From the NCBI GenBank assembly GCA_030691625.1, contig JAUYDX010000088.1:1856-65855 (forward strand): DNA of 64,000 nucleotides, written 5' to 3'. Below the pieces are notes generated by a model. It worked only from the letters and a program-made list of their open reading frames with translations. It did not search any database and was not told the origin of the DNA. This document shows, piece after piece, positions 7,895 through 63,567 of the stretch. The stretch is from Candidatus Omnitrophota bacterium. Lineage in GTDB: Bacteria > Omnitrophota > Gorgyraeia > Gorgyraeales > Gorgyraeaceae. Position 1 is the stretch's first letter. Every line of letters begins with the position of its first letter. Made by a program: the position numbers and the translations under genes.

Positions 7895-9055
7895 ATGGGC
7901 GAGTGGGTTGGAAGAGGCAGGAAGGCAAGGAGATGTTATGGGTTTGACGAGATCGCGCTTGTCCCCGGCAATGTTACGATAAATCCAAAAGAGACAGATA
8001 CGAGCTGGGAACTGGACGGAAAGAAATACAAGGTGCCTATTCTGGCAGCTGCCATGGACGGGGTAGTGGATGTGAAATTCGCGATAGAGATGTCCAGGCT
8101 CGGCGGGATAGCCGTCCTTAATTTAAACGGCGTGCAGACCAGGTATGAAGATCCTGATGAGGTGCTTGAGAAAATATCGCGCGCTAACCCGGAAGAAGCC
8201 ACAAAACTTGTGCAGTCGCTTTATCTGAAGCCTGTGCAGGAAAAACTTATCGCGAAAAGGATCAAGGAGATCAAATCCAAGAAAGGCGTGGCAGCTGTAA
8301 GTGCCATACCGCAGGACGCAGAAAAGTTCGGCAAGGTGGCTCAGGAGGCTGGCGCTGATATCTTTTTTATTCAATCAACTGTCATAAGCGTCAATCATGT
8401 CTCCAGCGAATATAAGATCGTGGACCTGGCGAAATTTATCAAATCAATGAAGATACCTGTGGTGCTGGGAAATTGCGTTACGTATTCCGTGGCGTTGGAA
8501 TTAATGGAGGCCGGGCCTGCGGCTATCCTGGTCGGGATAGGTCCTGGCGCGGCGTGCACCACTCGGGGCGTCTTAGGTATAGGCGTGCCTCAGGTAACAG
8601 CCACTTCGGATATAGCTGCGGCAAGGGATTTTTATTACAAGAAGACAGCGAAATACATACCTATTATAACAGACGGCGGCATGGATTCAGGCGGAGATAT
8701 ATGCAAGGCATTTGCCTGCGGCGCAGACGCGGTAATGGTGGGCTCTGCTTTCGCGAGGGCAAAGGAGGCGCCTGGCAAGGGATATCACTGGGGAATGGCA
8801 ACGCCACACGCCAACCTTCCCCGCGGCACCAGGATTCACGTTGGCACCACAGGGACACTGGAAGAGATCCTCCTGGGCCCTGCGAAGCTCGATGACGGCT
8901 CTCAGAATTTAGTAGGCGCTCTTATGACGTCAATGGGAAACCTCGGCGCTAGAAACATTAGAGAGATGCAGCTCACTGAAATTATCATAGCCCCATCCAT
9001 CAAGACCGAAGGCAAGATCATGCAAAGGGTCCAAAAGGTTGGCATGGGTAAATAA
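7895..9055 (+). CDS. IMP dehydrogenase/GMP reductase family protein (no CBS pair)
   Basis: TIM-barrel IMPDH motifs (GIGPGAACTTR catalytic Cys loop, GGMDSGGDICKAFACGADAVMVGS). Confidence 0.75.
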   Translation: MGEWVGRGRKARRCYGFDEIALVPGNVTINPKETDTSWELDGKKYKVPILAAAMDGVVDVKFAIEMSRLGGIAVLNLNGVQTRYEDPDEVLEKISRANPEEATKLVQSLYLKPVQEKLIAKRIKEIKSKKGVAAVSAIPQDAEKFGKVAQEAGADIFFIQSTVISVNHVSSEYKIVDLAKFIKSMKIPVVLGNCVTYSVALELMEAGPAAILVGIGPGAACTTRGVLGIGVPQVTATSDIAAARDFYYKKTAKYIPIITDGGMDSGGDICKAFACGADAVMVGSAFARAKEAPGKGYHWGMATPHANLPRGTRIHVGTTGTLEEILLGPAKLDDGSQNLVGALMTSMGNLGARNIREMQLTEIIIAPSIKTEGKIMQRVQKVGMGK

Positions 9056-9068
9056 AGTTAACCCGGAT

Positions 9069-9115
9069 TCAAACAACTTGACACTTGAAACAATGTCACA
9101 AGTGTCAAGTTGTTT
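9069..9115. repeat. family-1 palindrome copy E, between IMPDH-like stop and dnaE start
   Basis: inverted repeat. Confidence 0.9.
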
Positions 9116-9125
9116 GGTTGATTAT

Positions 9126-12100
9126 ATGCTTCATAGCGATTTCGTCCACCTGCACGTCCACACGCAATACAGCCTTCTTGACGGCGCCTGCATAATACCT
9201 AATCTCATTGACCTCGCGAGGCGCATGAAGATGCCTGCCTGCGCCATAACAGACCACGGCAACATGTTCGGCGCCATTGAATTCTACCAATCATGCATGA
9301 CGAATGGGATCAAGCCTATAATAGGGTCAGAGGTTTATATCGCCCCCAAAGGCAGGCTTGACAAGACCTTTTCCGCCGGAGAAGAAACAGCCAATCACCT
9401 GATACTGCTTGTCAAAGACGAGGCAGGATATAAAAATCTGATGAAGCTGGTCTCCATCGGTTATCTGGAAGGTTTTTATTATAAACCGAGGATCGATAAA
9501 GAGGTCCTGGCGCAGTATTCAAAAGGATTGATCGCGCTATCCAGCTGTTTAAAAGGCGAGATCCCCAGGTCTATAATGTCAGGGAAGGAAGAAAGGGCAA
9601 AACAGCTGGCAGATGAGTATTGCGCTATCATGGGCAAGGAAAATTTTTATTTTGAACTGCAGGATAACGGGATACCTGAGCAAAGGGAGGTCAGCAGGGA
9701 ACTTATAAGGCTTGGCAAAGAATTGGGCATAGGAGTAGTTGCCACTAACGACGTGCACTATCTTACCAGGGACAGCGCTAAGGCGCACGAGGCGCTTCTA
9801 TGCATACAGACGCAGACCACGCTGGATGACCCTAACCGCATGAAACTGCAGACAGACCAGTTTTATTTCAGGTCTGGCGAAGAAATGAAAGCGCTTTTTA
9901 AGGATACGCCGGACGCCATTTCCAACACAATAAAAATAGCGGAAAGGTGTAACCTGGAACTGGATTTCAAAAAGACATATCTTCCTCATTATGCCGCGCC
10001 TGAAGGCACCACGCGGGAAAAATTTATGAGAGAGCTCTGCGAAAATAATCTGGAGAAAAGATATCCCTTGTCTACCTGTCCAACTTCGCAAGTTGCCCCG
10101 ATGGGCAACTTGCGAAGTTGGACAGGTGGGGATATGAGACAAATAAAGGAAAGGCTGGATTATGAATTAAAGGTCATAAGCAAGGCAGGCTACACAAGTT
10201 ATTTCCTCATAGTGTGGGATTTTATAAGCCACGCGAAATCAAAAGGCATAGCTGTCGGGCCGGGAAGAGGTTCTGCGGCAGGGAGCATAGTGAGCTATCT
10301 CTTAGGCATAACAGACATAGACCCGCTCAGGTACAATCTCCTCTTTGAAAGATTTTTAAACTCTGAGCGCGTGAGCATGCCTGATATTGACATAGATTTC
10401 TGCTACGAAAGAAGGCCGGAGGTTATAGATTATGTCGTGCAGAAATACGGCAAGGACAATGTCGCGCAGATAATAACCTTCGGGACCATGGCAGCCAGGG
10501 CAGTAATAAGGGATGTGGGCAGGGTGATGAACCTTCCTTACGCTGATGTCGACAGGATAGCGAAGCTTGTGCCGATGGAACTGGACGTGACCCTGGAACT
10601 CGCGCTTGAAAAAGAACCGGAGCTCGCGAGATTATACAAAGAAGACCCAAGGGTGCGCGAACTTATAGATACCTCAAAAAAACTGGAAGGCCTTACGCGC
10701 CACGCGTCCACGCACGCGGCAGGGGTGGTCATAAGCGAGGATTCGCTCACCAACCACGTCCCAATATTTAAGACCAGCGATGGGCAAATTTCAACAGGCT
10801 ACGCCATGGGCTCTCTTGAAAAGATAGGGCTTTTTAAAAATGGATTTCCTGGGCTTGAGGACATTGACCGTTATTCAGGAGGCGATAAAGATAATCAACA
10901 GGGTCAATAATGTAGGGGCGGTCAATGACCGCCCCCTACGGGTTGAGGACATACCAATGGACGACCCTAAGACTTACAGGCTTTTGAATAACGCTGAATC
11001 AGAAGGCATATTCCAGCTGGAAAGTTCAGGGATGAGAGACCTTTTGAGGAAATTAAAGGCAGAGAAATTCGAGGACATAATAGCTCTTCTCGCGTTATAC
11101 AGGCCCGGCCCGATAGGAAGCGGCATGCTTGATGATTACATGAAGCGCAAGCACGGCAAGGTGGACGTGAGGTATGACCACCCGCTTCTTGAGGCGAGCC
11201 TGAAAGAGACATACGGCATCATTGTGTACCAGGAGCAGGTAATGACAATAGTCTCCTCGCTCGCTGGCTTTTCGCTGGCGCAGGCAGACCTTTTAAGAAG
11301 GGCTATCGGCAAAAAAACACCGGAGATAATGGAGCAGCAGAAAAAGGCCTTTATCGACGGCGCCGCGAAAAATAAAATAGACAGGCGTATTGCGGAAAAG
11401 ATATTTAACCTGATAGAGCATTTCGCCGGTTACGGCTTCAACAAAAGCCATTCAGCGGCGTACGCCATGATCTCTTACAGGACAGCGTACCTGAAGGCGA
11501 ACTTTCCCGTTGAGTTCATGACAGCCCTTCTCACCAGCGAAAAAGATAACACGGATAAGATAGTGGAATACATAGACGAGGCAGAGCGCATGGGTATAAA
11601 GATACTGCCTCCTGATATAAACGAGAGCTACGCGAATTTTACCATGATAAATAAAAATGAGATAAGATTTGGTTTGAGCGCTGTTAAAAATGTGGGCGAA
11701 GGCGCCATAGAATCCATAATCGAGGCCAGGAAAAAATACGGCCGTTTCTCGTCCCTGTACGAATTCTGCGAAAAGACAGATTCGAGGCTTGTGAATAAAA
11801 AGGTCATGGAGAGCCTTATAAAATGCGGGGCGTTTGACAGCGCGGGCCTTAAAAGATCCCAGCTGATGGCAATGCTGGCGGACACAATGAATGCCGCGGA
11901 TTCCGCGCACAAGGAATCCGCCACAGGCCAGATGACGCTTTTTACCAAGGACAGCCGCGAACCGCAGGCCCCGGATATAAAGGAGTGGCCTGAGAGCCAG
12001 CTTTTGAATTTTGAAAAAGATATGATAGGGTTTTATATAACAGGCCACCCTCTCGCCAAATACGAAAAGATGATCAAGGAATATTCCACAGCAGGCAGCG

Positions 12101-12633
12101 CCGGGCTGAGGAAGCTCGAGGACGGCCAGAAGGTCTGGTTCGGCGGCATAATAAACAAAATAAAAAACACGGTCACAAAGCGTTCCGGGGAAAAAATGGC
12201 TATCATGATGATGGAGGATATGGAAGGCAGCGTAGAAGCGCTTGTATTCCCAAACTCGTACAAAAACGTCTCCAGGAACATATTGCCTAATGCGGCAGTA
12301 TTTGTGAACGGCAGGCTCAGCCTTAAAGAGGAAAGGCCTAAGATAATCGTGGAGGAGATAATACCTATAACAGACGCCAGGAAAAAATTTACCCAGTCCA
12401 TTTCCATAAATCTCGCCAGCCAGGGCTCGGACGAGGAATTTTTCAACAGGCTCAGGAATGTCTTTTCAAGGTATCAGGGAGATACGCCTGTTTACATCAA
12501 TTTTTCCACTAAAGAAAACGGGTCTTTCCGCCAGGTCGTGGACAGGAAGCTTTTCGTGAGCCCCACCAATGAACTCGCCTCCGAGCTCGAGTCCCTGCTC
12601 GGCCGCGAACACATCCACTTCGAAAAATCCTAA
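9126..12633 (+). CDS. dnaE: DNA polymerase III alpha subunit DnaE, interrupted by a 1-nt frameshift in T5A5 run (10831-10840); contains two in-frame palindromic insertions
   Basis: PHP domain start MLHSDFVHLHVHTQYSLLDGA; two overlapping ORFs 9039-10910 and 10840-12633; removing one A restores ...GLFKMDFLGLRTL... Confidence 0.85.
10073..10127. repeat. family-2 palindrome, variant CCAACTTCGCAAGTTGCC, in frame inside dnaE
   Basis: 23-bp arms CCTGTCCAACTTCGCAAGTTGCC / GGCAACTTGCGAAGTTGGACAGG; adds ~18 aa STCPTSQVAPMGNLRSWTGG. Confidence 0.9.
10912..10939. repeat. GTAG-type REP-like hairpin GTAGGGGCGGTC-AAT-GACCGCCCCCTAC in frame inside dnaE
   Basis: 12/13-bp inverted repeat bounded by GTAG/CTAC; a related copy at 30949-30982. 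Confidence 0.8.
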
Positions 12634-12635
12634 CC

Positions 12636-12682
12636 CCAAACAACTTGACACTTCAAACAATGTCACAAGTGTCAAGTTGTTG
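12636..12682. repeat. family-1 palindrome copy F, after dnaE
   Basis: inverted repeat. Confidence 0.9.
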
Positions 12683-13052: not shown

Positions 13053-13062
13053 TTGTAGCGAT

Positions 13063-13099
13063 TGGTGCCAGGCACTATTTAAATAGTGCCTGGCACCAA
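13063..13099. repeat. family-3 GC-rich palindrome TGGTGCCAGGCAC..GTGCCTGGCACCA
   Basis: 13-bp arms around TATTTAAATA. Confidence 0.9.
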
Positions 13100-13109
13100 A
13101 AAGGTAAGC

Positions 13110-14393
13110 ATGATTAAAGCATTGCGCGGCACAAAAGATATTCTGCCAGGCGAGTCGGATTTATGGCAATTTATAGAATCTACTGGCAGGGATATATTTA
13201 ATATATATGGGTATAATGAGATAAGGACGCCGATAATAGAGGAGGCGTCTTTGTTTATAAGGGGCATAGGAGACCTGACTGACATAGTGCAGAAAGAGAT
13301 GTATGTTTTTTCTGACAGGGGCAATAGGCGAGTTGCGCTGAGGCCTGAGGCCACAGCGTCTATTGTCCGCGCGTATATAGAAAATTCAATGTCCCAGTCA
13401 GGCGGGGCCGCAAAGCTATTTTACACAGGCCCGATGTTCAGGAGCGAGAGGCCTCAGCAGGGCAGGCAGAGGCAGTTCTATCAGATAGGCGTGGAGGCAA
13501 TAGGCTCGGACAGCCCGTTTCTTGACGCTGAGGTTATTGCGCTGGCTGTGAGATTTCTTGACAGGCTTGGCGTTAAAAATTATCACGTGAAATTGAACAG
13601 CCTGGGCTGTCAGAAGGATAAAATGGCCGCAATAGCAAAACATAAAGAGAACTTTAAGCCTCATTTTGAAAAATTATGCGACACCTGCAAGGCCAGGTTT
13701 GACAAAAATGTCTTGAGGATATTTGACTGCAAGGGCGATACGTGCAGGGTCATTGCTGAAAATGTAAAGGTGGAGGCAGCGCTCTGCAATGACTGCGAGT
13801 CGCATTTTAAAAAGGTGAAACAGTGCCTGGACGAACTGGGCGTTAAATACACTGTGGATCATAAAATAGTAAGGGGCCTGGATTATTATACAAAGACTGT
13901 ATTTGAGATAACCCAGGATGACCTGGGCGCGAAAGACGCCATATGCGCCGGAGGCAGATATAATAATCTGGTAAAGGAACTGGGCGGGAAAGATACGCCT
14001 GCTACCGGGTTTGCTTTTGGCGTGGAGCGCCTGGCGCTTGCGTTAAAAGCTGTCAGCTGTCAGCATTCAGCTGTCAGCCCTAAAGTTTTTGTTGCGGTTG
14101 CGGGAGAAGGGCTTTACCCTGAAGCGTTTAAATTGCTGGATTCTTTGCGCGGCGCCGGGATCGCAAGCGAAATGGATTATGACGAGAGAAGCTTAAAGAG
14201 CCAGATGAGAAAGGCAGAGAAGCTCGGGGCAGGGTTTGTGGTTATTTTAGGGGAAGATGAGTTTAAAAAAGGCAAAGCTGTATTAAAGGATATGAGTAGC
14301 GGAGACCAAAAAGAAATAATGCTGAATGAAATTATTTCGGCGCTCCATACCATAAAAACTTCGCAGGTTGCCGAAGGCAACCTGCGAAGTTGA
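13110..14393 (+). CDS. hisS: histidyl-tRNA synthetase; C-terminal 11 aa and stop supplied by a family-2 palindrome
   Basis: class II aaRS motifs, MIKALRGTKDILP start; ends TSQVAEGNLRS* inside REP. Confidence 0.9.
   Translation: MIKALRGTKDILPGESDLWQFIESTGRDIFNIYGYNEIRTPIIEEASLFIRGIGDLTDIVQKEMYVFSDRGNRRVALRPEATASIVRAYIENSMSQSGGAAKLFYTGPMFRSERPQQGRQRQFYQIGVEAIGSDSPFLDAEVIALAVRFLDRLGVKNYHVKLNSLGCQKDKMAAIAKHKENFKPHFEKLCDTCKARFDKNVLRIFDCKGDTCRVIAENVKVEAALCNDCESHFKKVKQCLDELGVKYTVDHKIVRGLDYYTKTVFEITQDDLGAKDAICAGGRYNNLVKELGGKDTPATGFAFGVERLALALKAVSCQHSAVSPKVFVAVAGEGLYPEAFKLLDSLRGAGIASEMDYDERSLKSQMRKAEKLGAGFVVILGEDEFKKGKAVLKDMSSGDQKEIMLNEIISALHTIKTSQVAEGNLRS
14048..14078 (+). repeat. short tandem repeat (GCTGTCAGC x3) inside hisS coding sequence
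   Basis: gctgtcagctgtcagcattcagctgtcagc encoding AVSCQHSAVS. Confidence 0.7.
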
Positions 14394-14398
14394 GGTGG
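14356..14398. repeat. family-2 palindrome forming hisS 3' end and aspS RBS
   Basis: AACTTCGCAGGTTGCC-GAA-GGCAACCTGCGAAGTT + GAGGTGG. Confidence 0.9.
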
Positions 14399-14402
14399 TT
14401 AA

Positions 14403-16482: not shown

Positions 16483-16508
16483 CAAAGCAGGGAACAGCCG
16501 CGATCGTA

Positions 16509-16571
16509 CCGCCTCAACCTCGCAGGTTACCTCGCAGGTTACCTCGCAGGTAACCTGCGAGGTTGAGGCGG
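16509..16571. repeat. family-2 palindrome with internal triplication (CCTCGCAGGTTA x3)
   Basis: CCGCCTCAACCTCGCAGGTTACCTCGCAGGTTACCTCGCAGGTAACCTGCGAGGTTGAGGCGG. Confidence 0.9.
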
Positions 16572-16605
16572 TTTGTTGTAAAGTTGTTGAGGGTGTAAAC
16601 CTTGG

Positions 16606-21641: not shown

Positions 21642-22221
21642 CCTCATCCTTACTTTTTTTACAAAAGATTTCGGGAAGATAGACGGCATCATAAAAGGCG
21701 CCAGGGGCGCCAGGCCCAGGGGCGACGCTAACCCGATATTTTTCAGCCTGGACCAGATAGTTTTTTACGAAAAAAAATTTGGAGGCATCTCCATAATCTC
21801 GCAATGCGAGACAGAGGAGGTGTTCCTCAATATATTGAAGGAGTGGGCCAGGGCGTCGTCAGCTTATTACATGCTGGAACTGGCAGACGTATTCACCGAG
21901 CCTGAAGGCAGGTCAGAAGAGGTTTTCGAGGCGCTTTACAGCGGCTTTAAATCCCTAGACAGCGGGAAGGATGCCTCAGGTATAACCAGGCTTTTTGAGA
22001 TAAAATTACTCATGGCGCTTGGTTTCTGGCCTGGCGCGGAATATTTCAAGCTGACCAAAGGCGCGATGTCCAGCGTCATGCATCTTGAAAAAGAACCCTG
22101 GAAAACAGCCTCTAATATAAAACTGGCAAAAGAGGTAAATGGCGAGATCAGGGCTGTTACGGCTAAACTTATCGAAGAAAATCTTGACAGGCCGCTAAAA
22201 ACCGTCAGATTTTTAACTTAA
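21583..22221 (+). CDS. recO: DNA repair protein RecO
   Basis: MAIQKTEAILLKKKDFRETSLIL N-terminal OB fold typical of RecO. Confidence 0.75.
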   Translation: MAIQKTEAILLKKKDFRETSLILTFFTKDFGKIDGIIKGARGARPRGDANPIFFSLDQIVFYEKKFGGISIISQCETEEVFLNILKEWARASSAYYMLELADVFTEPEGRSEEVFEALYSGFKSLDSGKDASGITRLFEIKLLMALGFWPGAEYFKLTKGAMSSVMHLEKEPWKTASNIKLAKEVNGEIRAVTAKLIEENLDRPLKTVRFLT

Positions 22222-22262
22222 ACCTCGTAGGTTGCCGTAGGCAACCTACGAGGTTGTGGTGG
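22222..22262. repeat. family-2 palindrome between recO stop and glyQ start
   Basis: ACCTCGTAGGTTGCC-GTAG-GCAACCTACGAGGTT + GTGGTGG. Confidence 0.9.
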
Positions 22263-25222: not shown

Positions 25223-25265
25223 TTTGGTGCCAGGCACCGTGCCAGGCACGGTGCCTGGCACCAAA
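25223..25265. repeat. family-3 palindrome with duplicated arm
   Basis: TTTGGTGCCAGGCACCGTGCCAGGCACGGTGCCTGGCACCAAA. Confidence 0.9.
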
Positions 25266-28021: not shown

Positions 28022-28061
28022 TTTGGTGCCTGGCACCATTTTAAAAGGTGCCAGGCACCAA
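28022..28061. repeat. family-3 palindrome
   Basis: TTTGGTGCCTGGCACC-ATTTTAAAA-GGTGCCAGGCACCAA. Confidence 0.9.
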
Positions 28062-29548: not shown

Positions 29549-29625
29549 TGTCCCAGTAGCTCAGATGGATAGAGCACAGGTTTCCTAAACCTGGGGTCGG
29601 GCGTTCGAATCGCCCCTGGGACGCC
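29549..29625 (+). tRNA. tRNA-Arg (anticodon CCT)
   Basis: manual fold: acceptor GTCCCAG/CTGGGAC, D-arm GCTC..GAGC, anticodon stem CAGGT/ACCTG with loop TTCCTAA, T-arm GGGCG-TTCGAAT-CGCCC, discriminator G, encoded CCA. Confidence 0.88.
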
Positions 29626-30853: not shown

Positions 30854-30896
30854 AAATGGTGCCAGGCACTACTACAAATAGTGCCTGGCACCATTT
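30854..30896. repeat. family-3 palindrome
   Basis: AAATGGTGCCAGGCACTACTACAAATAGTGCCTGGCACCATTT. Confidence 0.9.
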
Positions 30897-30948: not shown

Positions 30949-30982
30949 TAATGTAGGGCGGGTTTAAACCCGCCCTACATTA
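30949..30982. repeat. GTAG-type REP-like perfect 17-bp-arm palindrome TAATGTAGGGCGGGTTT/AAACCCGCCCTACATTA at 5' end of porin leader
   Basis: perfect inverted repeat right after the -10 box. Confidence 0.85.
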
Positions 30983-34021: not shown

Positions 34022-34063
34022 ATGGTGCCAGGCACCGTGCCTGGCACGGTGCCTGGCACCATC
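34021..34063. repeat. family-3 palindrome with duplicated arm
   Basis: AATGGTGCCAGGCACCGTGCCTGGCACGGTGCCTGGCACCAT. Confidence 0.9.
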
Positions 34064-34121: not shown

Positions 34122-34250
34122 TTACGACAAAGGCAAACCATTCGAAAGAATGGGGCGCAAAGTCAACAGGCCTAAAGCCCTGAAGGGCAACGGCGGCTGG
34201 ATTACCGAAATTAAAAACCTATTCTGCCATGAGGCCGGATAGGTTTTTTA
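34122..34250 (+). ncRNA. c-di-GMP-I (GEMM) riboswitch candidate with intrinsic terminator, in leader of RlpA-like gene
   Basis: GGCAAACC-AUUCGAAAGAAUGG-GGCGCAAAG-..GGCCUAAAG..GGAUUACCGAAAU closely matches the Vibrio Vc2 GEMM aptamer as recalled from memory (GGGCAAACCAUUCGAAAGAGUGGGACGCAAAGCC..GGCCUAAAC..GGUUACCGAUGG); followed by AACCUAU..AUAGGUUUUUU terminator 15 nt before the RBS. Confidence 0.6.
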
Positions 34251-45061: not shown

Positions 45062-45066
45062 TAAAA

Positions 45067-45107
45067 ACCTCGTAGGTTGCCAAAGGCAACCTGCGAGGTT
45101 GAGGTGG
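45067..45107. repeat. family-2 palindrome upstream of cysE
   Basis: ACCTCGTAGGTTGCC-AAA-GGCAACCTGCGAGGTT + GAGGTGG. Confidence 0.9.
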
Positions 45108-45113
45108 TATAAA

Positions 45114-45830
45114 ATGTTTTTAGCTAGAATGAGTGAAGATATAAGATCCGCGATCAATAAGGACCCTGCGGCAAAGAGCGGCCTGGAAGTCATGTTCTGC
45201 TATCCGGGCGTTCACGCCATATGGTTTCACAGGATAGCGCATTTTTTCTACAATAGAAAAATGCGCCTCGCCGCCAGGATGATTTCCCATTTTGCCAGGT
45301 TTGTTACAGGCGTGGAGATCCATCCCGGCGCCAGTATCGGAAGGCGCGTGTTTATAGACCACGGTATGGGCGTTGTGATAGGCGAGACCTCTGAGATAGG
45401 CGATGACTCTCTTATTTACAAAGGCGTTGTGCTTGGAGGCACAAGCCTTGAAAAAGGCAAGCGCCATCCCACGCTCGGGAAGAATGTAGTGGTGGGGTCA
45501 AACGCCTGCGTGCTCGGCCCTATTAAAATAGGCGACGGCGCCAAGATAGGCTCGGGCTCTGTGGTCATAAAGGACGTGCCTAGCGGCGCCACTGTGGTGG
45601 GCGTGCCTGGCAAGATAGTGGAAAAGAAAACAGCGGATAAGCTGGCCCTGGATTTCGAGCATGGGAACCTGCCTGACCCTGTGGCAGACGTCGTGAAGAT
45701 CATGCTCAAGATGCAGCACGAGCTGGAGCAGAGGCTGAACACCATTGAAAAGGACCACAATATAAACGTCAGGAGCATATTCCACGATTACGAGGAAAAG
45801 GCTGCTGAAGAGCTTCCTGATGAAAAATAA
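45114..45830 (+). CDS. cysE: serine O-acetyltransferase
   Basis: SATase N-terminal domain and hexapeptide repeats; start 6 nt after GAGGTGG of a family-2 palindrome. Confidence 0.9.
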
Positions 45831-48853: not shown

Positions 48854-48886
48854 CCCAACCTACGAGGTAACCTGCGAGGTTGAAGA
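48854..48886. repeat. family-2 palindrome (partial left arm), upstream side of REPtron
   Basis: CCCCAACCTACGAGGTAACCTGCGAGGTTGAAG. Confidence 0.8.
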
Positions 48887-48946: not shown

Positions 48947-48988
48947 ACCACCTCAACCTGCGAGGTAACCTGCGAGGTTGAAGTGGTT
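48947..48988. repeat. family-2 palindrome immediately 5' of RAYT gene
   Basis: AACCACCTCAACCTGCGAGGTAACCTGCGAGGTTGAAGTGGTT. Confidence 0.9.
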
Positions 48989-49008: not shown

Positions 49009-49638
49009 ATGTTTGTTACAGGCGAAATTTATCATGTTTATAGTAAGAGTATAGCTGATTTTAAGATATTCAATAATGATTTTGAATACCAGAGAATTAA
49101 TAAAGCAATGCAATATTATCAAGTTTCTAAACGGCCTGGAAGTTTTTCTAACTTTTTGGAATACGGGAAACAGCTTTCAGCGGGTAATACCAATAATAAA
49201 CTGGTGCAAATTATTTCTTATTGTCCGATGCCGACTCATTTGCATTTTACCTTAAAGCAATTAATAGAAAAAGGGATATCAACATTTATGAGCAATGTCC
49301 TCAATAGCTATACCCGTTATTTTAATATCAAGCATAACCGTAAAGGTCCGCTATGGGAAGGGCGGTTCAAGAAAGTATTGGTGAAAAGCGATGAACAGCT
49401 AATTCATCTGACTCGCTATATCCATTTAAATCCTGTTACAGCAGGTTTGGTTAATAATCCGATAGATTGGCCATGGTCTTCTTATCATGAGTTTATTAAT
49501 AAAGATTTAACAGAAGACAGCATTTGTGAATACAAAAATATATTAGACATAAAACCTGATAGTTATAAAGCATTCACAGAAGATAGAGCTTCTTATCAAA
49601 GAGAATTGGCAAAAATAAAGCATATACTGATCGATTAG
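49009..49638 (+). CDS. REP-associated tyrosine transposase (RAYT; IS200/IS605 TnpA-like HUH enzyme)
   Basis: HUH motif HLHFTL, catalytic Tyr region RYIHLNPV, ~200 aa; flanked on both sides by inverted family-2 palindromes. Confidence 0.8.
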   Translation: MFVTGEIYHVYSKSIADFKIFNNDFEYQRINKAMQYYQVSKRPGSFSNFLEYGKQLSAGNTNNKLVQIISYCPMPTHLHFTLKQLIEKGISTFMSNVLNSYTRYFNIKHNRKGPLWEGRFKKVLVKSDEQLIHLTRYIHLNPVTAGLVNNPIDWPWSSYHEFINKDLTEDSICEYKNILDIKPDSYKAFTEDRASYQRELAKIKHILID

Positions 49639-49680
49639 ACCACCTTAACCTACGAGGTAACCTGCGAGGTTGAGATGGTT
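49639..49680. repeat. family-2 palindrome immediately 3' of RAYT gene
   Basis: GACCACCTTAACCTACGAGGTAACCTGCGAGGTTGAGATGGTT. Confidence 0.9.
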
Positions 49681-52911: not shown

Positions 52912-53090
52912 AAGAAAAAAGCCGATAAAGGCTTTTAGCTTCGGCTTTTCATCGCTCGGCAACCCGGCCGCCATATTATTACTGACTGCCTCACTGACCA
53001 TTTGCGTTAGCTCAGGTCACGGCTTGTCAGAATAACTTAGGCCCGTAGGCTTTGCGCCCCCTGATTTCTCAGGGTTTGCCCTTATCGGCT
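52912..53090 (-). ncRNA. c-di-GMP-I (GEMM) riboswitch-like RNA with own promoter and terminator, convergent with/antisense-oriented to the GGDEF gene
   Basis: minus-strand RNA AGCCGAUAAGGGCAAACC-CUGAGAAAUCAGG-GGGCGCAAAGCC-UACGGGCCUAAG...GGCGGCCGGGUUGCCGAGCGAUG matches the GEMM consensus; ends in a hairpin plus U6. Confidence 0.55.
52917..52950. terminator. bidirectional intrinsic terminator (ends GGDEF gene on + and GEMM RNA on -)
   Basis: AAGCCGA..TCGGCTT hairpin flanked by A-run on one side and T-run on the other. Confidence 0.6.
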
Positions 53091-63223: not shown

Positions 63224-63270
63224 ATGTCCAACTTCGCAAGTTGCCCACGGCAACTTGCGAAGTTGGACAT
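63224..63270. repeat. family-2 palindrome (CCAACTTCGCAAGTTGCC variant) between rho and rpmE
   Basis: ATGTCCAACTTCGCAAGTTGCC-CAC-GGCAACTTGCGAAGTTGGACAT. Confidence 0.9.
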
Positions 63271-63520: not shown

Positions 63521-63567
63521 AACCTCGCAGGTTACCTACGAGGTAACCTGCGAGGTTGAGGTGGTTT
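63521..63567. repeat. family-2 palindrome supplying RBS of prfA
   Basis: AACCTCGCAGGTTACCTACGAGGTAACCTGCGAGGTTGAGGTGG then TTTTAAATG. Confidence 0.9.

What the first reader, a model, noticed from the sequence alone, without database searches (positions are those of the whole stretch)
10073..10127. Family-2 palindrome inserted in frame inside dnaE (and a second GTAG-hairpin insertion at 10912-10939)
A 55-bp perfect hairpin (CCTGTCCAACTTCGCAAGTTGCC..GGCAACTTGCGAAGTTGGACAGG) lies within the PHP/polymerase junction of dnaE. It keeps the reading frame and adds roughly STCPTSQVAPMGNLRSWTGG.

A second GC-rich GTAG..CTAC hairpin at 10912-10939 also lies in frame (NNVGAVNDRPLRV). Mobile palindromes tolerated inside an essential replicase are noteworthy and would form strong mRNA and DNA secondary structures.
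Basis: partly seen in the sequence, partly recalled or inferred. Interest (0 to 1): 0.65.

Follow-up and report, generated by a model that had tools for sequence, protein, structure and literature searches.

The report
Mobile REP-like palindromes translated inside dnaE

Summary
Both hairpins are real. At 10074-10127 there is a perfect 54-nt palindrome (25-nt arms, 4-nt loop; RNA fold -59.8 kcal/mol, z = -14). At 10912-10939 there is a GTAG...CTAC hairpin with one bulge. Both lie in dnaE of a Candidatus Omnitrophota MAG, and both are insertions. About 105 of 120 Omnitrophota DnaE homologs have a 6-residue loop at site 1, and 113 of 120 have a short loop at site 2.

The 54-nt element is 18 codons long and has no stop codon in any of the six frames. 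Its arms are invariant at 33 distinct sites in related metagenomes. Ten of those sites are deep inside genes, including ValRS, FabD, HemC, QueA and LpxL-ELM1.

In two metagenome loci the element flanks a RAYT-like HUH/Tyr transposase on both sides. A 65%-identical RAYT at window 49009-49638 is flanked by sister repeats. Both dnaE sites are hot spots, with empty, GTAG and other palindrome states swapped among 97-98%-identical alleles.

Verdict: a REPIN/RAYT system with RPE-like in-frame insertions, which is a new variant of known kinds.

The parts
9126..12633 (+). dnaE (DNA polymerase III alpha). It is 1168 aa after skipping one base of the frameshift and 92% identical to the closest Omnitrophota homolog.
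   Evidence: PHP 8-180, DNA_pol3_alpha 300-571, finger, HHH_6, OB.
10074..10127 (.). 54-nt perfect palindrome, ACCTGTCCAACTTCGCAAGTTGCCC cgat GGGCAACTTGCGAAGTTGGACAGGT. It is a REPIN-like element of 18 codons, read as TCPTSQVAPMGNLRSWTG. Each arm is itself a mini-palindrome (CAACTT-CGC-AAGTTG).
10061..10135 (+). Full predicted hairpin, including the outer stem ATATCCCT/GGGGATAT. The flanks (CCCTTGTCTACCT ... AGGTGG) are shared with the different palindrome that occupies this site in L002. This indicates nested insertion or replacement.
10912..10939 (+). GTAG...CTAC hairpin (REP-like, one bulge), read as VGAVNDRPL. It is 100% identical to the hairpin at the same site in MAG CG1_02_40_15 (L005).
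10831..10835 (+). T5 run holding one extra T. It shifts dnaE by +1 and creates a stop codon at 10908-10910.
49009..49638 (+). RAYT-like Y1 HUH transposase of 209 aa (GenBank MDP2921930.1, annotated 'transposase'). It has the HUH motif PTHLH and the tyrosine motif RYIHLNPV.
   Evidence: PF01797, 27.4 bits, cut-off 23. (NF047646 REP_Tyr_transpos, E 5.6e-17, 62 bits, below the cut-off of 80). (only PDB hit is 4ER8 TnpA-REP, E 3.4e-6)..
48948..48986 (.). REP-like unit CCACCTCAACCTGCGAGGTAACCTGCGAGGTTGAAGTGG, directly upstream of the RAYT gene. A further unit lies at 48857-48883.
49640..49678 (.). REP-like unit CCACCTTAACCTACGAGGTAACCTGCGAGGTTGAGATGG, directly downstream of the RAYT gene.
63224..63270 (.). 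Sister copy of the dnaE element (22-nt arms, 3-nt loop). It is intergenic, between rho and rpmE.
   Evidence: the L31 Pfam match starts at residue 24 of the ORF.
14357..14391 (.). Palindrome of the same core family. It forms the last 12 codons of hisS (KTSQVAEGNLRS*) and holds its stop codon. GAGGTGG follows, just before the aspS ATG.
16508..16572 (.). Palindrome of the same core family, intergenic, between the LysM gene and phoH.
22221..22255 (.). Palindrome of the same core family, intergenic, between recO and glyQ.
45066..45100 (.). Palindrome of the same core family, intergenic, upstream of the serine acetyltransferase start at 45114.
63521..63557 (.). Palindrome of the same core family, intergenic, downstream of rpmE.
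30949..30982 (.). The only other GTAG...CTAC hairpin in the window (TAATGTAGGGCGGGTTT/AAACCCGCCCTACATTA). It is intergenic.

Best explanation
The two hairpins are copies of non-autonomous, REP/REPIN-like mobile palindromes that have landed in two length-variable loops of DnaE. They persist there because they keep the reading frame open.

The 54-nt element belongs to a repeat family tied to a RAYT-type (REP-associated tyrosine, HUH) transposase. By analogy with E. coli TnpA-REP and IS200/IS608 (inference), the enzyme would recognise the folded hairpin on single-stranded DNA at the replication fork and cut and rejoin it elsewhere. The element is exactly 18 codons long and has no stop codon in any of its six frames, so any insertion into a gene simply adds an 18-residue peptide. 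Selection then keeps only copies that fall in permissive loops. In the three frames the peptides are TCPTSQVAxxGNLRSWTG, PVQLRKLPxWATCEVGQ and NLSNFASCPxGQLAKLDR.

The 28-nt GTAG hairpin is a second, classical-looking REP family. It survives in genes only in frames that avoid TAG (GTA GGG ... in every dnaE copy) and with flanking bases that restore a multiple of three.

The two dnaE loops are recurrent hot spots. Palindromes are gained, lost, nested into one another and swapped between alleles as short patches, probably by recombination.

Shown: the palindromes; their family membership; their in-frame position in dnaE and in at least 9 other genes; the RAYT association; and presence/absence and swap polymorphism among near-identical dnaE alleles.

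Inferred: that the RAYT mobilises them; the single-strand mechanism; that the peptides are translated and are neutral surface loops; and that the frameshift is an assembly error.
For: (1) Insertion status. Alignment of 120 homologs shows the short ancestral loops at both sites in most sequences, including those only 60-75% identical.

(2) Repeat family. Metagenome and genome scans found the 19-nt arm at 35 distinct flank contexts (33 distinct sites after merging orthologous genes). The arms are invariant and the 4-nt loops vary.

(3) In-frame copies in real genes. Pfam domains continue on both sides of the element in ValRS, LpxL-ELM1, QueA, FabD, a C1 peptidase, GT2, HemC and GT4. A 708-aa protein with no Pfam match also carries it. 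That is about 10 of 33 sites. In Pseudomonas fluorescens SBW25, only 14 of 1,067 REP 16-mers overlap genes (PMC3116915).

(4) Coding properties. The element is 54 nt = 18 codons and stop-free in every frame.

(5) RAYT link.
- In L039, a protein 65.5% identical to the window's RAYT lies exactly between two copies of the 54-nt element. L046 shows the same arrangement at a contig end.
- The window's own RAYT is flanked on both sides by repeats sharing the core AACYTCGYARGTTRCC with the dnaE element.
- The window has one RAYT gene against at least 9 repeat loci.

(6) GTAG family. In each genome the intragenic hairpins match that genome's intergenic GTAG copies. They occur at dnaE site 1 and/or site 2 in 15 or more homologs, and in rsmD of L009.

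(7) Turnover.
- Filled and empty states are scattered over the DnaE tree.
- L058/L061 (97.5% nt identity) and L059/L060 (98.5%) differ by presence or absence at site 2.
- L062/L063 (98.0%) carry different GTAG hairpins at site 1.
- Six relatives at 85-92% aa identity show five different states at site 1.
- The window and L002 share flanks around different palindromes.

(8) Loops. Site length varies in Thermus and E. coli DnaE. The model has pLDDT < 50 and coil at both inserts.
Against: - No empty-site allele was found for the 54-nt element in dnaE. The nearest relative (L001, 88% nt identity) carries a different palindrome there, so the insertion event itself is not seen.
- Net length changes are not simple insertions: +60 nt at site 1, and +15 to +24 nt for the 28-29-nt GTAG hairpins. 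Substitutions cluster in the flanks of near-isogenic pairs. This fits patch replacement or recombination as well as, or better than, repeated fresh transposition.
- No target-site duplication or common target motif is visible.
- The RAYT scores below NCBIfam's equivalog cut-off (62 against 80 bits).
- The RAYT in this window is flanked by a sister subfamily, not by the exact dnaE-type element.
- Freedom from stop codons alone is expected by chance in 8.6% of random 54-nt palindromes.
- The AlphaFold model is poor overall (pTM 0.42), so 'surface loop' rests mainly on alignment.
- dnaE is frameshifted in this assembly, so an intact, expressed gene cannot be proven here.
Confidence: 0.78

Rival explanations
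1. Host-selected structural elements. The hairpins are kept at these two dnaE positions because the RNA/DNA stem or the extra peptide loop does something useful. Candidates are translational pausing for co-translational folding, mRNA stabilisation, or a partner-binding loop. On this view they are not merely tolerated selfish DNA.
For: The same two loops carry hairpins in many lineages. Stems stay complementary although their sequences differ, for example GACGGTC/GACCGTC against GATGGTC/GACCATC and GTAGAGG/CCTCTAC. Hairpins are exchanged rather than simply lost between 98%-identical alleles.
Against: Most homologs (about 105 of 120 at site 1 and 113 of 120 at site 2) do without them. Identical elements lie in unrelated genes and in intergenic DNA. 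The peptide differs with the reading frame and the family. Complementarity is explained equally well by replacement with the genome's current REP variant.
Confidence: 0.1
2. dnaE in this window is a decaying pseudogene. It tolerates insertions because a second functional replicase gene exists elsewhere. The frameshift is real.
For: One-base frameshift at 10831-10835 and a premature stop at 10908-10910. Neither ORF product is present as a protein in the 15-billion-sequence collection, although the neighbouring RAYT from the same NCBI MAG is. This would fit annotation as a pseudogene.
Against: Apart from that one base, the gene is intact over 1168 codons and 92% identical to P0001, with all domains present. 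Relatives with uninterrupted dnaE carry palindromes at the same two sites (L001, L002, L004, L005, L058, L059, L062, L063). The defect is one extra base in a T5A5 homopolymer context, which is typical of a consensus error. No other split gene was seen in the 64 kb window.
Confidence: 0.07
3. The inserts are not translated. They are skipped by ribosomal bypassing (as in T4 gene 60 or the mitochondrial 'byp' hairpin elements of Magnusiomyces; both recalled from memory) or removed from the mRNA.
For: The hairpin is very stable (-59.8 kcal/mol). For the 54-nt family, an open frame is automatic (18 codons, no stops) and so proves nothing about translation.
Against: GTAG hairpins contain TAG in one of their frames and are 28-29 nt long. 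Yet every intragenic copy is in a frame free of stop codons, and every filled dnaE site differs from the empty state by a multiple of three (+15, +18, +21, +24 nt). That is the signature of selection for read-through translation. No take-off/landing codon pair or stop codon at the 5' edge is seen.
Confidence: 0.04
4. Assembly or sequencing artefact: palindromic chimeras introduced by the assembler or by library preparation.
For: The window does hold one probable consensus error, the extra T. Read support could not be examined.
Against: The same elements are found in frame in independent assemblies from JGI, ENA and NCBI projects. An identical GTAG hairpin sits at the same dnaE codon in a different MAG (L005). 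The frame is preserved.
Confidence: 0.02

Closest known systems
REP/REPIN elements with their RAYT (REP-associated tyrosine transposase; E. coli TnpA-REP, PDB 4ER8; Pseudomonas REPINs)
   Same: Short repeated palindromes occur at many loci: about 30 palindromes of four families in 64 kb. A single HUH/Tyr transposase gene is flanked by the repeats. It is most similar to TnpA-REP. The hairpin is a REPIN-like doublet whose arms each hold a small palindrome. The second family starts with the classical GTAG.
   Different: The 54-nt family lacks the 5' GTAG. It is a perfect hairpin with a short loop rather than two REPs around a spacer. About 30% of its sites are deep inside genes and in frame. REPs are extragenic by definition; only 14 of 1,067 16-mers overlap genes in SBW25 (PMC3116915). 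The host phylum is Omnitrophota, not Gammaproteobacteria. The RAYT falls below the NCBIfam equivalog threshold.
Rickettsia palindromic elements (RPEs; Ogata et al. [quoted passage not shown]
   Same: A repeated palindromic element is inserted in frame in many unrelated housekeeping genes. It adds a family-specific peptide without destroying the gene.
   Different: RPEs are about 100-150 bp and add 30-50 residues; this element is 54 nt. No sequence relationship is expected. No mobilising enzyme is known for RPEs, whereas a cognate RAYT-like gene is flanked by the element here. The host is free-living or epibiotic Omnitrophota, not an obligate intracellular alphaproteobacterium.
Small dispersed repeats / very small mobile palindromes of cyanobacteria (Elhai et al. 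2008; recalled from memory, not checked here)
   Same: Hairpin-forming repeats of tens of nucleotides that nest into one another and are occasionally found inside genes.
   Different: Different sequence families and phylum. No RAYT link was reported for them, as far as I recall.
MITEs (e.g. Correia, ERIC, Chunjie, Nezha)
   Same: Non-autonomous, hairpin-forming and occasionally intragenic with in-frame fusions (PMC10969869).
   Different: There is no target-site duplication and no resemblance to the ends of a DDE insertion sequence. The element is also much shorter.

Membership tests
REP/REPIN-RAYT system | A short palindromic sequence repeated many times in the genome | tested here: met
   The core AACYTCGYARGTTRCC gives 18 arm hits at about 10 loci in 64 kb, against 0.01 expected. 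The 54-nt form is found at 33 distinct sites in relatives. The whole-genome count for the source MAG is not available.
REP/REPIN-RAYT system | A RAYT gene flanked by copies of the repeat | tested here: met
   The window RAYT at 49009-49638 lies between units at 48948-48986 and 49640-49678. The L039 RAYT at 211-831 lies between exact 54-nt copies at 139-192 and 864-917.
REP/REPIN-RAYT system | The transposase is a Y1 HUH enzyme of the RAYT clade, not IS200 | tested here: inconclusive
   PF01797 scores above its cut-off. The only NCBIfam hit is REP_Tyr_transpos, at 62 bits against an equivalog cut-off of 80. The only PDB hit is TnpA-REP 4ER8, with HUH and Tyr aligned. No RAYT/IS200 phylogeny was made.
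REP/REPIN-RAYT system | Repeats predominantly extragenic | tested here: not met
   About 10 of 33 distinct sites of the 54-nt element are deep inside long ORFs with Pfam domains on both sides. Within the window itself, 8 of about 10 loci of the family are intergenic, one (14357-14391) forms the 3' end of hisS, and one lies deep inside dnaE.
REP/REPIN-RAYT system | Conserved 5' GTAG tetranucleotide next to the palindrome | tested here: not met
   The 54-nt element begins ACCTGTCC. The second dnaE hairpin and its relatives do begin with GTAG and end with CTAC.
REP/REPIN-RAYT system | RAYT single-copy and vertically inherited | not tested
   There is one copy in the 64 kb window. Homologs number 3,456 (E <= 1e-5), and every named one among the best 120 is from Omnitrophota. 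One homolog (P0131) is listed with the same longest-contig length (69,217 nt) as the dnaE of P0011.
REP/REPIN-RAYT system | RAYT binds and cleaves the folded repeat on single-stranded DNA | not testable with these tools
   Needs biochemistry.
Rickettsia palindromic elements (RPE) | A repeated palindromic element inserted in frame in many unrelated protein-coding genes | tested here: met
   dnaE plus ValRS, LpxL-ELM1, QueA, FabD, C1 peptidase, GT2, HemC, GT4 and an unknown 708-aa protein.
Rickettsia palindromic elements (RPE) | Element of about 100-150 bp belonging to one of the RPE sequence families of Rickettsia | tested here: not met
   The element is 54 nt and the host is Omnitrophota. RPE sizes are taken from PMC10969869. 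It is an analogue, not a member.
Rickettsia palindromic elements (RPE) | Insert maps to a surface loop without disturbing the fold | tested here: inconclusive
   Both sites are length-variable in solved DnaE homologs. In a weak model (pTM 0.42) both are coil with pLDDT < 50.
MITE | Terminal inverted repeats matching an insertion sequence, plus a target-site duplication | tested here: not met
   The flanks of 35 sites show no direct repeat and no common motif.

The most novel reading that the evidence does not exclude
Omnitrophota may carry a RAYT-driven hairpin family that has evolved to be 'coding-compatible': exactly 18 codons, open in all six frames. Together with GTAG REPs, it would be repeatedly targeted to pre-existing hairpins in a few loops of essential genes. 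Loops such as DnaE site 1 would then act as hairpin landing pads, where cassettes are inserted, nested and exchanged. [quoted passage not shown] It would also show that REPIN/RAYT systems can diversify protein loops rather than being confined to extragenic space.
Probability: 0.3. Interest if true: 0.8.

Novelty: new variant of a known kind. Interest (0 to 1): 0.6.

Why it matters
REPs are by definition extragenic, and the enzyme that spreads the in-frame palindromes of Rickettsia has never been identified. Here a REPIN-like element with a recognisable cognate RAYT-type transposase lies in frame in the replicative polymerase, an aminoacyl-tRNA synthetase, and fatty-acid, haem and queuosine enzymes of an uncultured phylum. 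The same two DnaE loops are hit again and again.

This gives a testable system for three questions:
- How hairpin transposition reaches coding DNA.
- How much insertion essential enzymes tolerate.
- Whether such elements diversify protein loops.

There is also a practical point. These palindromes, and the homopolymer error beside them, can mislead gene callers and cause an essential gene to be annotated as a pseudogene in MAGs.

Tried and rejected
- The genome-contig scan for the arm did not find the source genome. It found only MAG CG1_02_40_15 and a chance single arm in a Polaromonas MAG (L007), so no whole-genome census could be made.
- No empty-site allele for the 54-nt element in dnaE was found. 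The closest relative (L001) has another palindrome at the site.
- A search for target-site duplications or a common target motif around 35 sites found none.
- Freedom from stops in all frames was tested as a signal of adaptation. It is expected by chance in 8.6% of random palindromes and so is not significant alone.
- The AlphaFold model of the repaired DnaE from a 40-sequence alignment was weak (pLDDT 68.6, pTM 0.42). Many conserved regions were also of low confidence. I used it only as minor support and ran no fold search.
- Rfam has no family on any of the palindromes.
- Palindromes at 45066-45100 and 63224-63270 first looked intragenic in the mechanical ORF list. Both are upstream of the true starts of cysE and rpmE.
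- The exact look-up of P0032 failed. Exact look-ups of the two dnaE ORF products found nothing.
- Programmed +1 frameshifting at CUU UUU A was considered for the T5 run. A slip from CUU to UUU would restore GLLKMDFLGL. I rejected it as the main reading because there is no slow or stop codon in the A site and no properly spaced SD-like stimulator, and relatives simply have T4.
- A literature search found no paper on palindromic repeats in Omnitrophota genes. The hits concern CRISPR.
Full report
**What is in the sequence**

The window comes from a Candidatus Omnitrophota MAG. DnaE homologs of 60-92% identity are all Omnitrophota. A neighbouring protein is GenBank MDP2921930.1, on a 72.8-kb contig. 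dnaE runs from 9126 to 12633 on the + strand.

At 10074-10127 there is a perfect palindrome with 25-nt arms and a 4-nt loop. None is expected by chance. As RNA it folds at -59.8 kcal/mol (z = -14.4), and an outer 8-bp stem extends it to 10061-10135. At 10912-10939 lies GTAGGGGCGGTCAATGACCGCCCCCTAC, a GTAG...CTAC hairpin with one bulge. Both are read through by long ORFs.

ORF 9039-10910 and ORF 10840-12633 are in different frames because the run 10831-10835 has five T. L001 and L005 have four (ctt tta aaa atg), and all 120 homologs read GLLKMDFLGL. After skipping one base, the protein has 1168 residues with all DnaE domains.

**Both hairpins are insertions**

At site 1 the ground state in most of 120 homologs, including distant ones, is RY-KEVTPQ-IK. 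The window has RY-PLSTCPTSQVAPMGNLRSWTGGDMRQ-IK. At site 2 the ground state is RVN-G-IN-LKVE, and the window has RVN-NVGAVNDRP-LRVE.

Thermus DnaE has its own unrelated extra segment of about 43 residues at site 1 and is 6 residues shorter at site 2. E. coli has a loop of other sequence at site 2. These are therefore length-variable loops, not conserved residues.

Pfam places insert 1 sixteen residues into DNA_pol3_alpha (300-571) and insert 2 in the finger domain. A weak AlphaFold model (pTM 0.42) shows both as low-confidence coil between helices.

**The 54-nt element is a dispersed repeat that often lies inside genes**

A sister copy lies between rho and rpmE at 63224-63270. Shorter relatives share the core AACYTCGYARGTTRCC and occupy about eight further loci in the window.

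Scanning public collections for the 19-nt arm gave two copies in MAG CG1_02_40_15 and 48 metagenome stretches. Together these make 35 flank contexts, or 33 distinct sites. The arms are invariant and the loops variable (CAATTG, CAGCTG, CAGATG and others).

Ten of the sites are deep inside long ORFs. Pfam shows the domains continuing on both sides of the element in valyl-tRNA synthetase, an LpxL-ELM1 fusion, QueA, FabD, a C1 peptidase, a GT2, HemC and a GT4.

All three reading frames are used, giving [32 protein letters not shown] and NLSNFASCP.GQLAKLDR. The element is 18 codons long and stop-free in all six frames. That property alone has a chance probability of 0.086.

**A cognate transposase**

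Annotating the window revealed a 209-aa Y1 HUH transposase at 49009-49638. The evidence is:
- PF01797 scores above its cut-off.
- The only NCBIfam hit is REP_Tyr_transpos, at 62 bits, below the equivalog cut-off of 80.
- The only PDB hit is E. coli TnpA-REP (4ER8), with the HUH and Tyr motifs aligned.
- The gene is flanked on both sides by units CCACCTYAACCTRCGAGGTAACCTGCGAGGTTGARRTGG of the same core family.

In metagenome locus L039, a 65.5%-identical homolog lies exactly between two copies of the dnaE-type 54-nt element. L046 shows the same arrangement at a contig end. This is the classical RAYT/REP arrangement.

The protein family is large: 3,456 homologs at E <= 1e-5. Every named member among the best 120 is labelled simply 'transposase' in Omnitrophota.

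**The GTAG family**

The site-2 hairpin is identical to the one at the same codon in L005 and similar to the one in L001. GTAG hairpins also occupy site 1 in many homologs, with peptides such as PVGEGFKPSPT and VGAASDRPLQ. One lies in rsmD of L009. In each genome the intragenic copies resemble that genome's intergenic copies.

These hairpins are 28-29 nt long and contain TAG in one of their frames. Even so, every intragenic copy is in an open frame, and every filled dnaE site differs from the empty state by a multiple of three. This argues that they are translated.

**Hot spots and turnover**

Six relatives at 85-92% aa identity show five different states at site 1:
- empty;
- two GTAG variants;
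- a 46-nt TGTCC... palindrome (L002);
- a 50-nt unrelated palindrome (L001);
- the 54-nt element (window).

The window and L002 share the flanks GATATCCC(T/G)TGTC(T/C)ACCT ... AGGTGG...CAAATAA around different interiors, which indicates nesting or replacement. On a DnaE tree the filled and empty states are scattered.

Near-isogenic pairs differ only locally. L058/L061 (97.5% nt identity) and L059/L060 (98.5%) differ by presence or absence at site 2. L062/L063 (98.0%) carry different hairpins at site 1. In each case extra substitutions lie immediately beside the hairpin. That points to exchange of short patches by recombination in addition to, or instead of, fresh transposition.

**Interpretation**

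The best reading is a REPIN/RAYT-type system whose elements, unusually, persist in frame inside genes, as the palindromic elements of Rickettsia do (PMC10969869). The contrast with classical REPs is strong: only 14 of 1,067 REP 16-mers overlap genes in Pseudomonas fluorescens SBW25 (PMC3116915).

RAYT-mediated mobilisation on single-stranded DNA is inferred by analogy, not shown. The rivals all fit the data less well:
- a selected functional hairpin or loop;
- dnaE as a true pseudogene;
- translational bypass;
- assembly artefact.

The frameshift is most simply a homopolymer consensus error. It is a single base, the rest of the gene is intact, and no other split gene was noticed in the window. 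Read data are needed to settle this.

**Novelty**

No paper in the searched library describes palindromic repeats inside Omnitrophota genes. REPs, REPINs, RAYTs and RPEs are all known, so this is a new variant of known kinds rather than a new category.

The new points are three. A cognate RAYT is linked to RPE-like in-frame insertions. The element has a coding-compatible design of 18 codons with all frames open. Two DnaE loops serve as recurrent landing sites for several palindrome families.

Noticed in passing
window 10831-10835: dnaE is interrupted by a +1 frameshift: T5 where relatives have T4. This gives a stop at 10908-10910 and a second ORF from the ATG at 10840. It is probably a homopolymer consensus error in the MAG. 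A +1 slip from CUU to UUU would restore the conserved GLLKMDFLGL, so programmed frameshifting cannot be fully excluded.
   Followed up: partly
window 49009-49638, with 48857-48883, 48948-48986 and 49640-49678: A RAYT-like HUH/Tyr transposase gene flanked by REP-like units of the same core family as the dnaE palindrome. It is annotated only as 'transposase' in GenBank (MDP2921930.1).
   Followed up: yes
window 9072-9114 and 12639-12681, plus about 12 more loci (e.g. 1838, 3668, 23113, 40533, 43699, 53139): A third palindrome family, AACAACTTGACACTTGTGACA/TGTCACAAGTGTCAAGTTGTT, with 24 arm hits. All copies are intergenic. One sits 10 nt upstream of the dnaE ATG and one 6 nt after its stop. Each arm contains TTGACA, the sigma-70 -35 consensus, so these may be promoters, operators or terminators.
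   Followed up: partly
window 13062-13099, 25223-25265, 28023-28061, 30854-30896, 34022-34062: A fourth palindrome family built on TGGTGCCAGGCACC, with 12 arm hits. It is intergenic, its arms are themselves palindromic, and it is open in all six frames.
   Followed up: no
window 14357-14402: The last 12 codons and the stop codon of hisS lie inside a family-2 palindrome (KTSQVAEGNLRS*, the same peptide frame as in dnaE). The element's 3' flank GAGGTGG sits 5 nt before the aspS ATG, like a Shine-Dalgarno sequence. The same GAGGTGG-then-ATG arrangement occurs before cysE (45101-45116).
   Followed up: partly
window 34122-34209 (+) and 52954-53089 (-): Two c-di-GMP-I class riboswitch aptamers (Rfam RF01051 at 81.8 bits; RF03167 at 59.9 bits). 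There is also a tRNA at 29550-29623.
   Followed up: no
L035 5482-5535; L013 5311-5364 (= L008, L031); L015 553-606; L019 3450-3501; L048 2681-2730; L054 2744-2793; L032 8594-8641; L023 1540-1593; L047 5020-5072 (= L053): The same 54-nt palindrome lies in frame inside valS, an lpxL-ELM1 fusion, queA, fabD, hemC, two glycosyltransferases, a C1 peptidase and an unknown 708-aa protein in related metagenomic Omnitrophota.
   Followed up: yes
L009 889-917: A GTAG...CTAC hairpin lies in frame (SRGGFQTRPY) inside a 212-aa ORF that looks like rsmD in MAG CG1_02_40_15. No family search was run on this ORF. The hairpin is in a different reading frame from the dnaE copies.
   Followed up: partly
L001 2568-2607; L002 6200-6243: Two further palindromes occupy dnaE site 1 in the closest relatives: CCAATCCAGACGCGTCGTCTGG..., and TGTCCACCTACGGGGTGGACCAA... 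The second encloses a CTAC...GTAG core. Neither was found in any other fetched locus, so their family status is unknown.
   Followed up: partly
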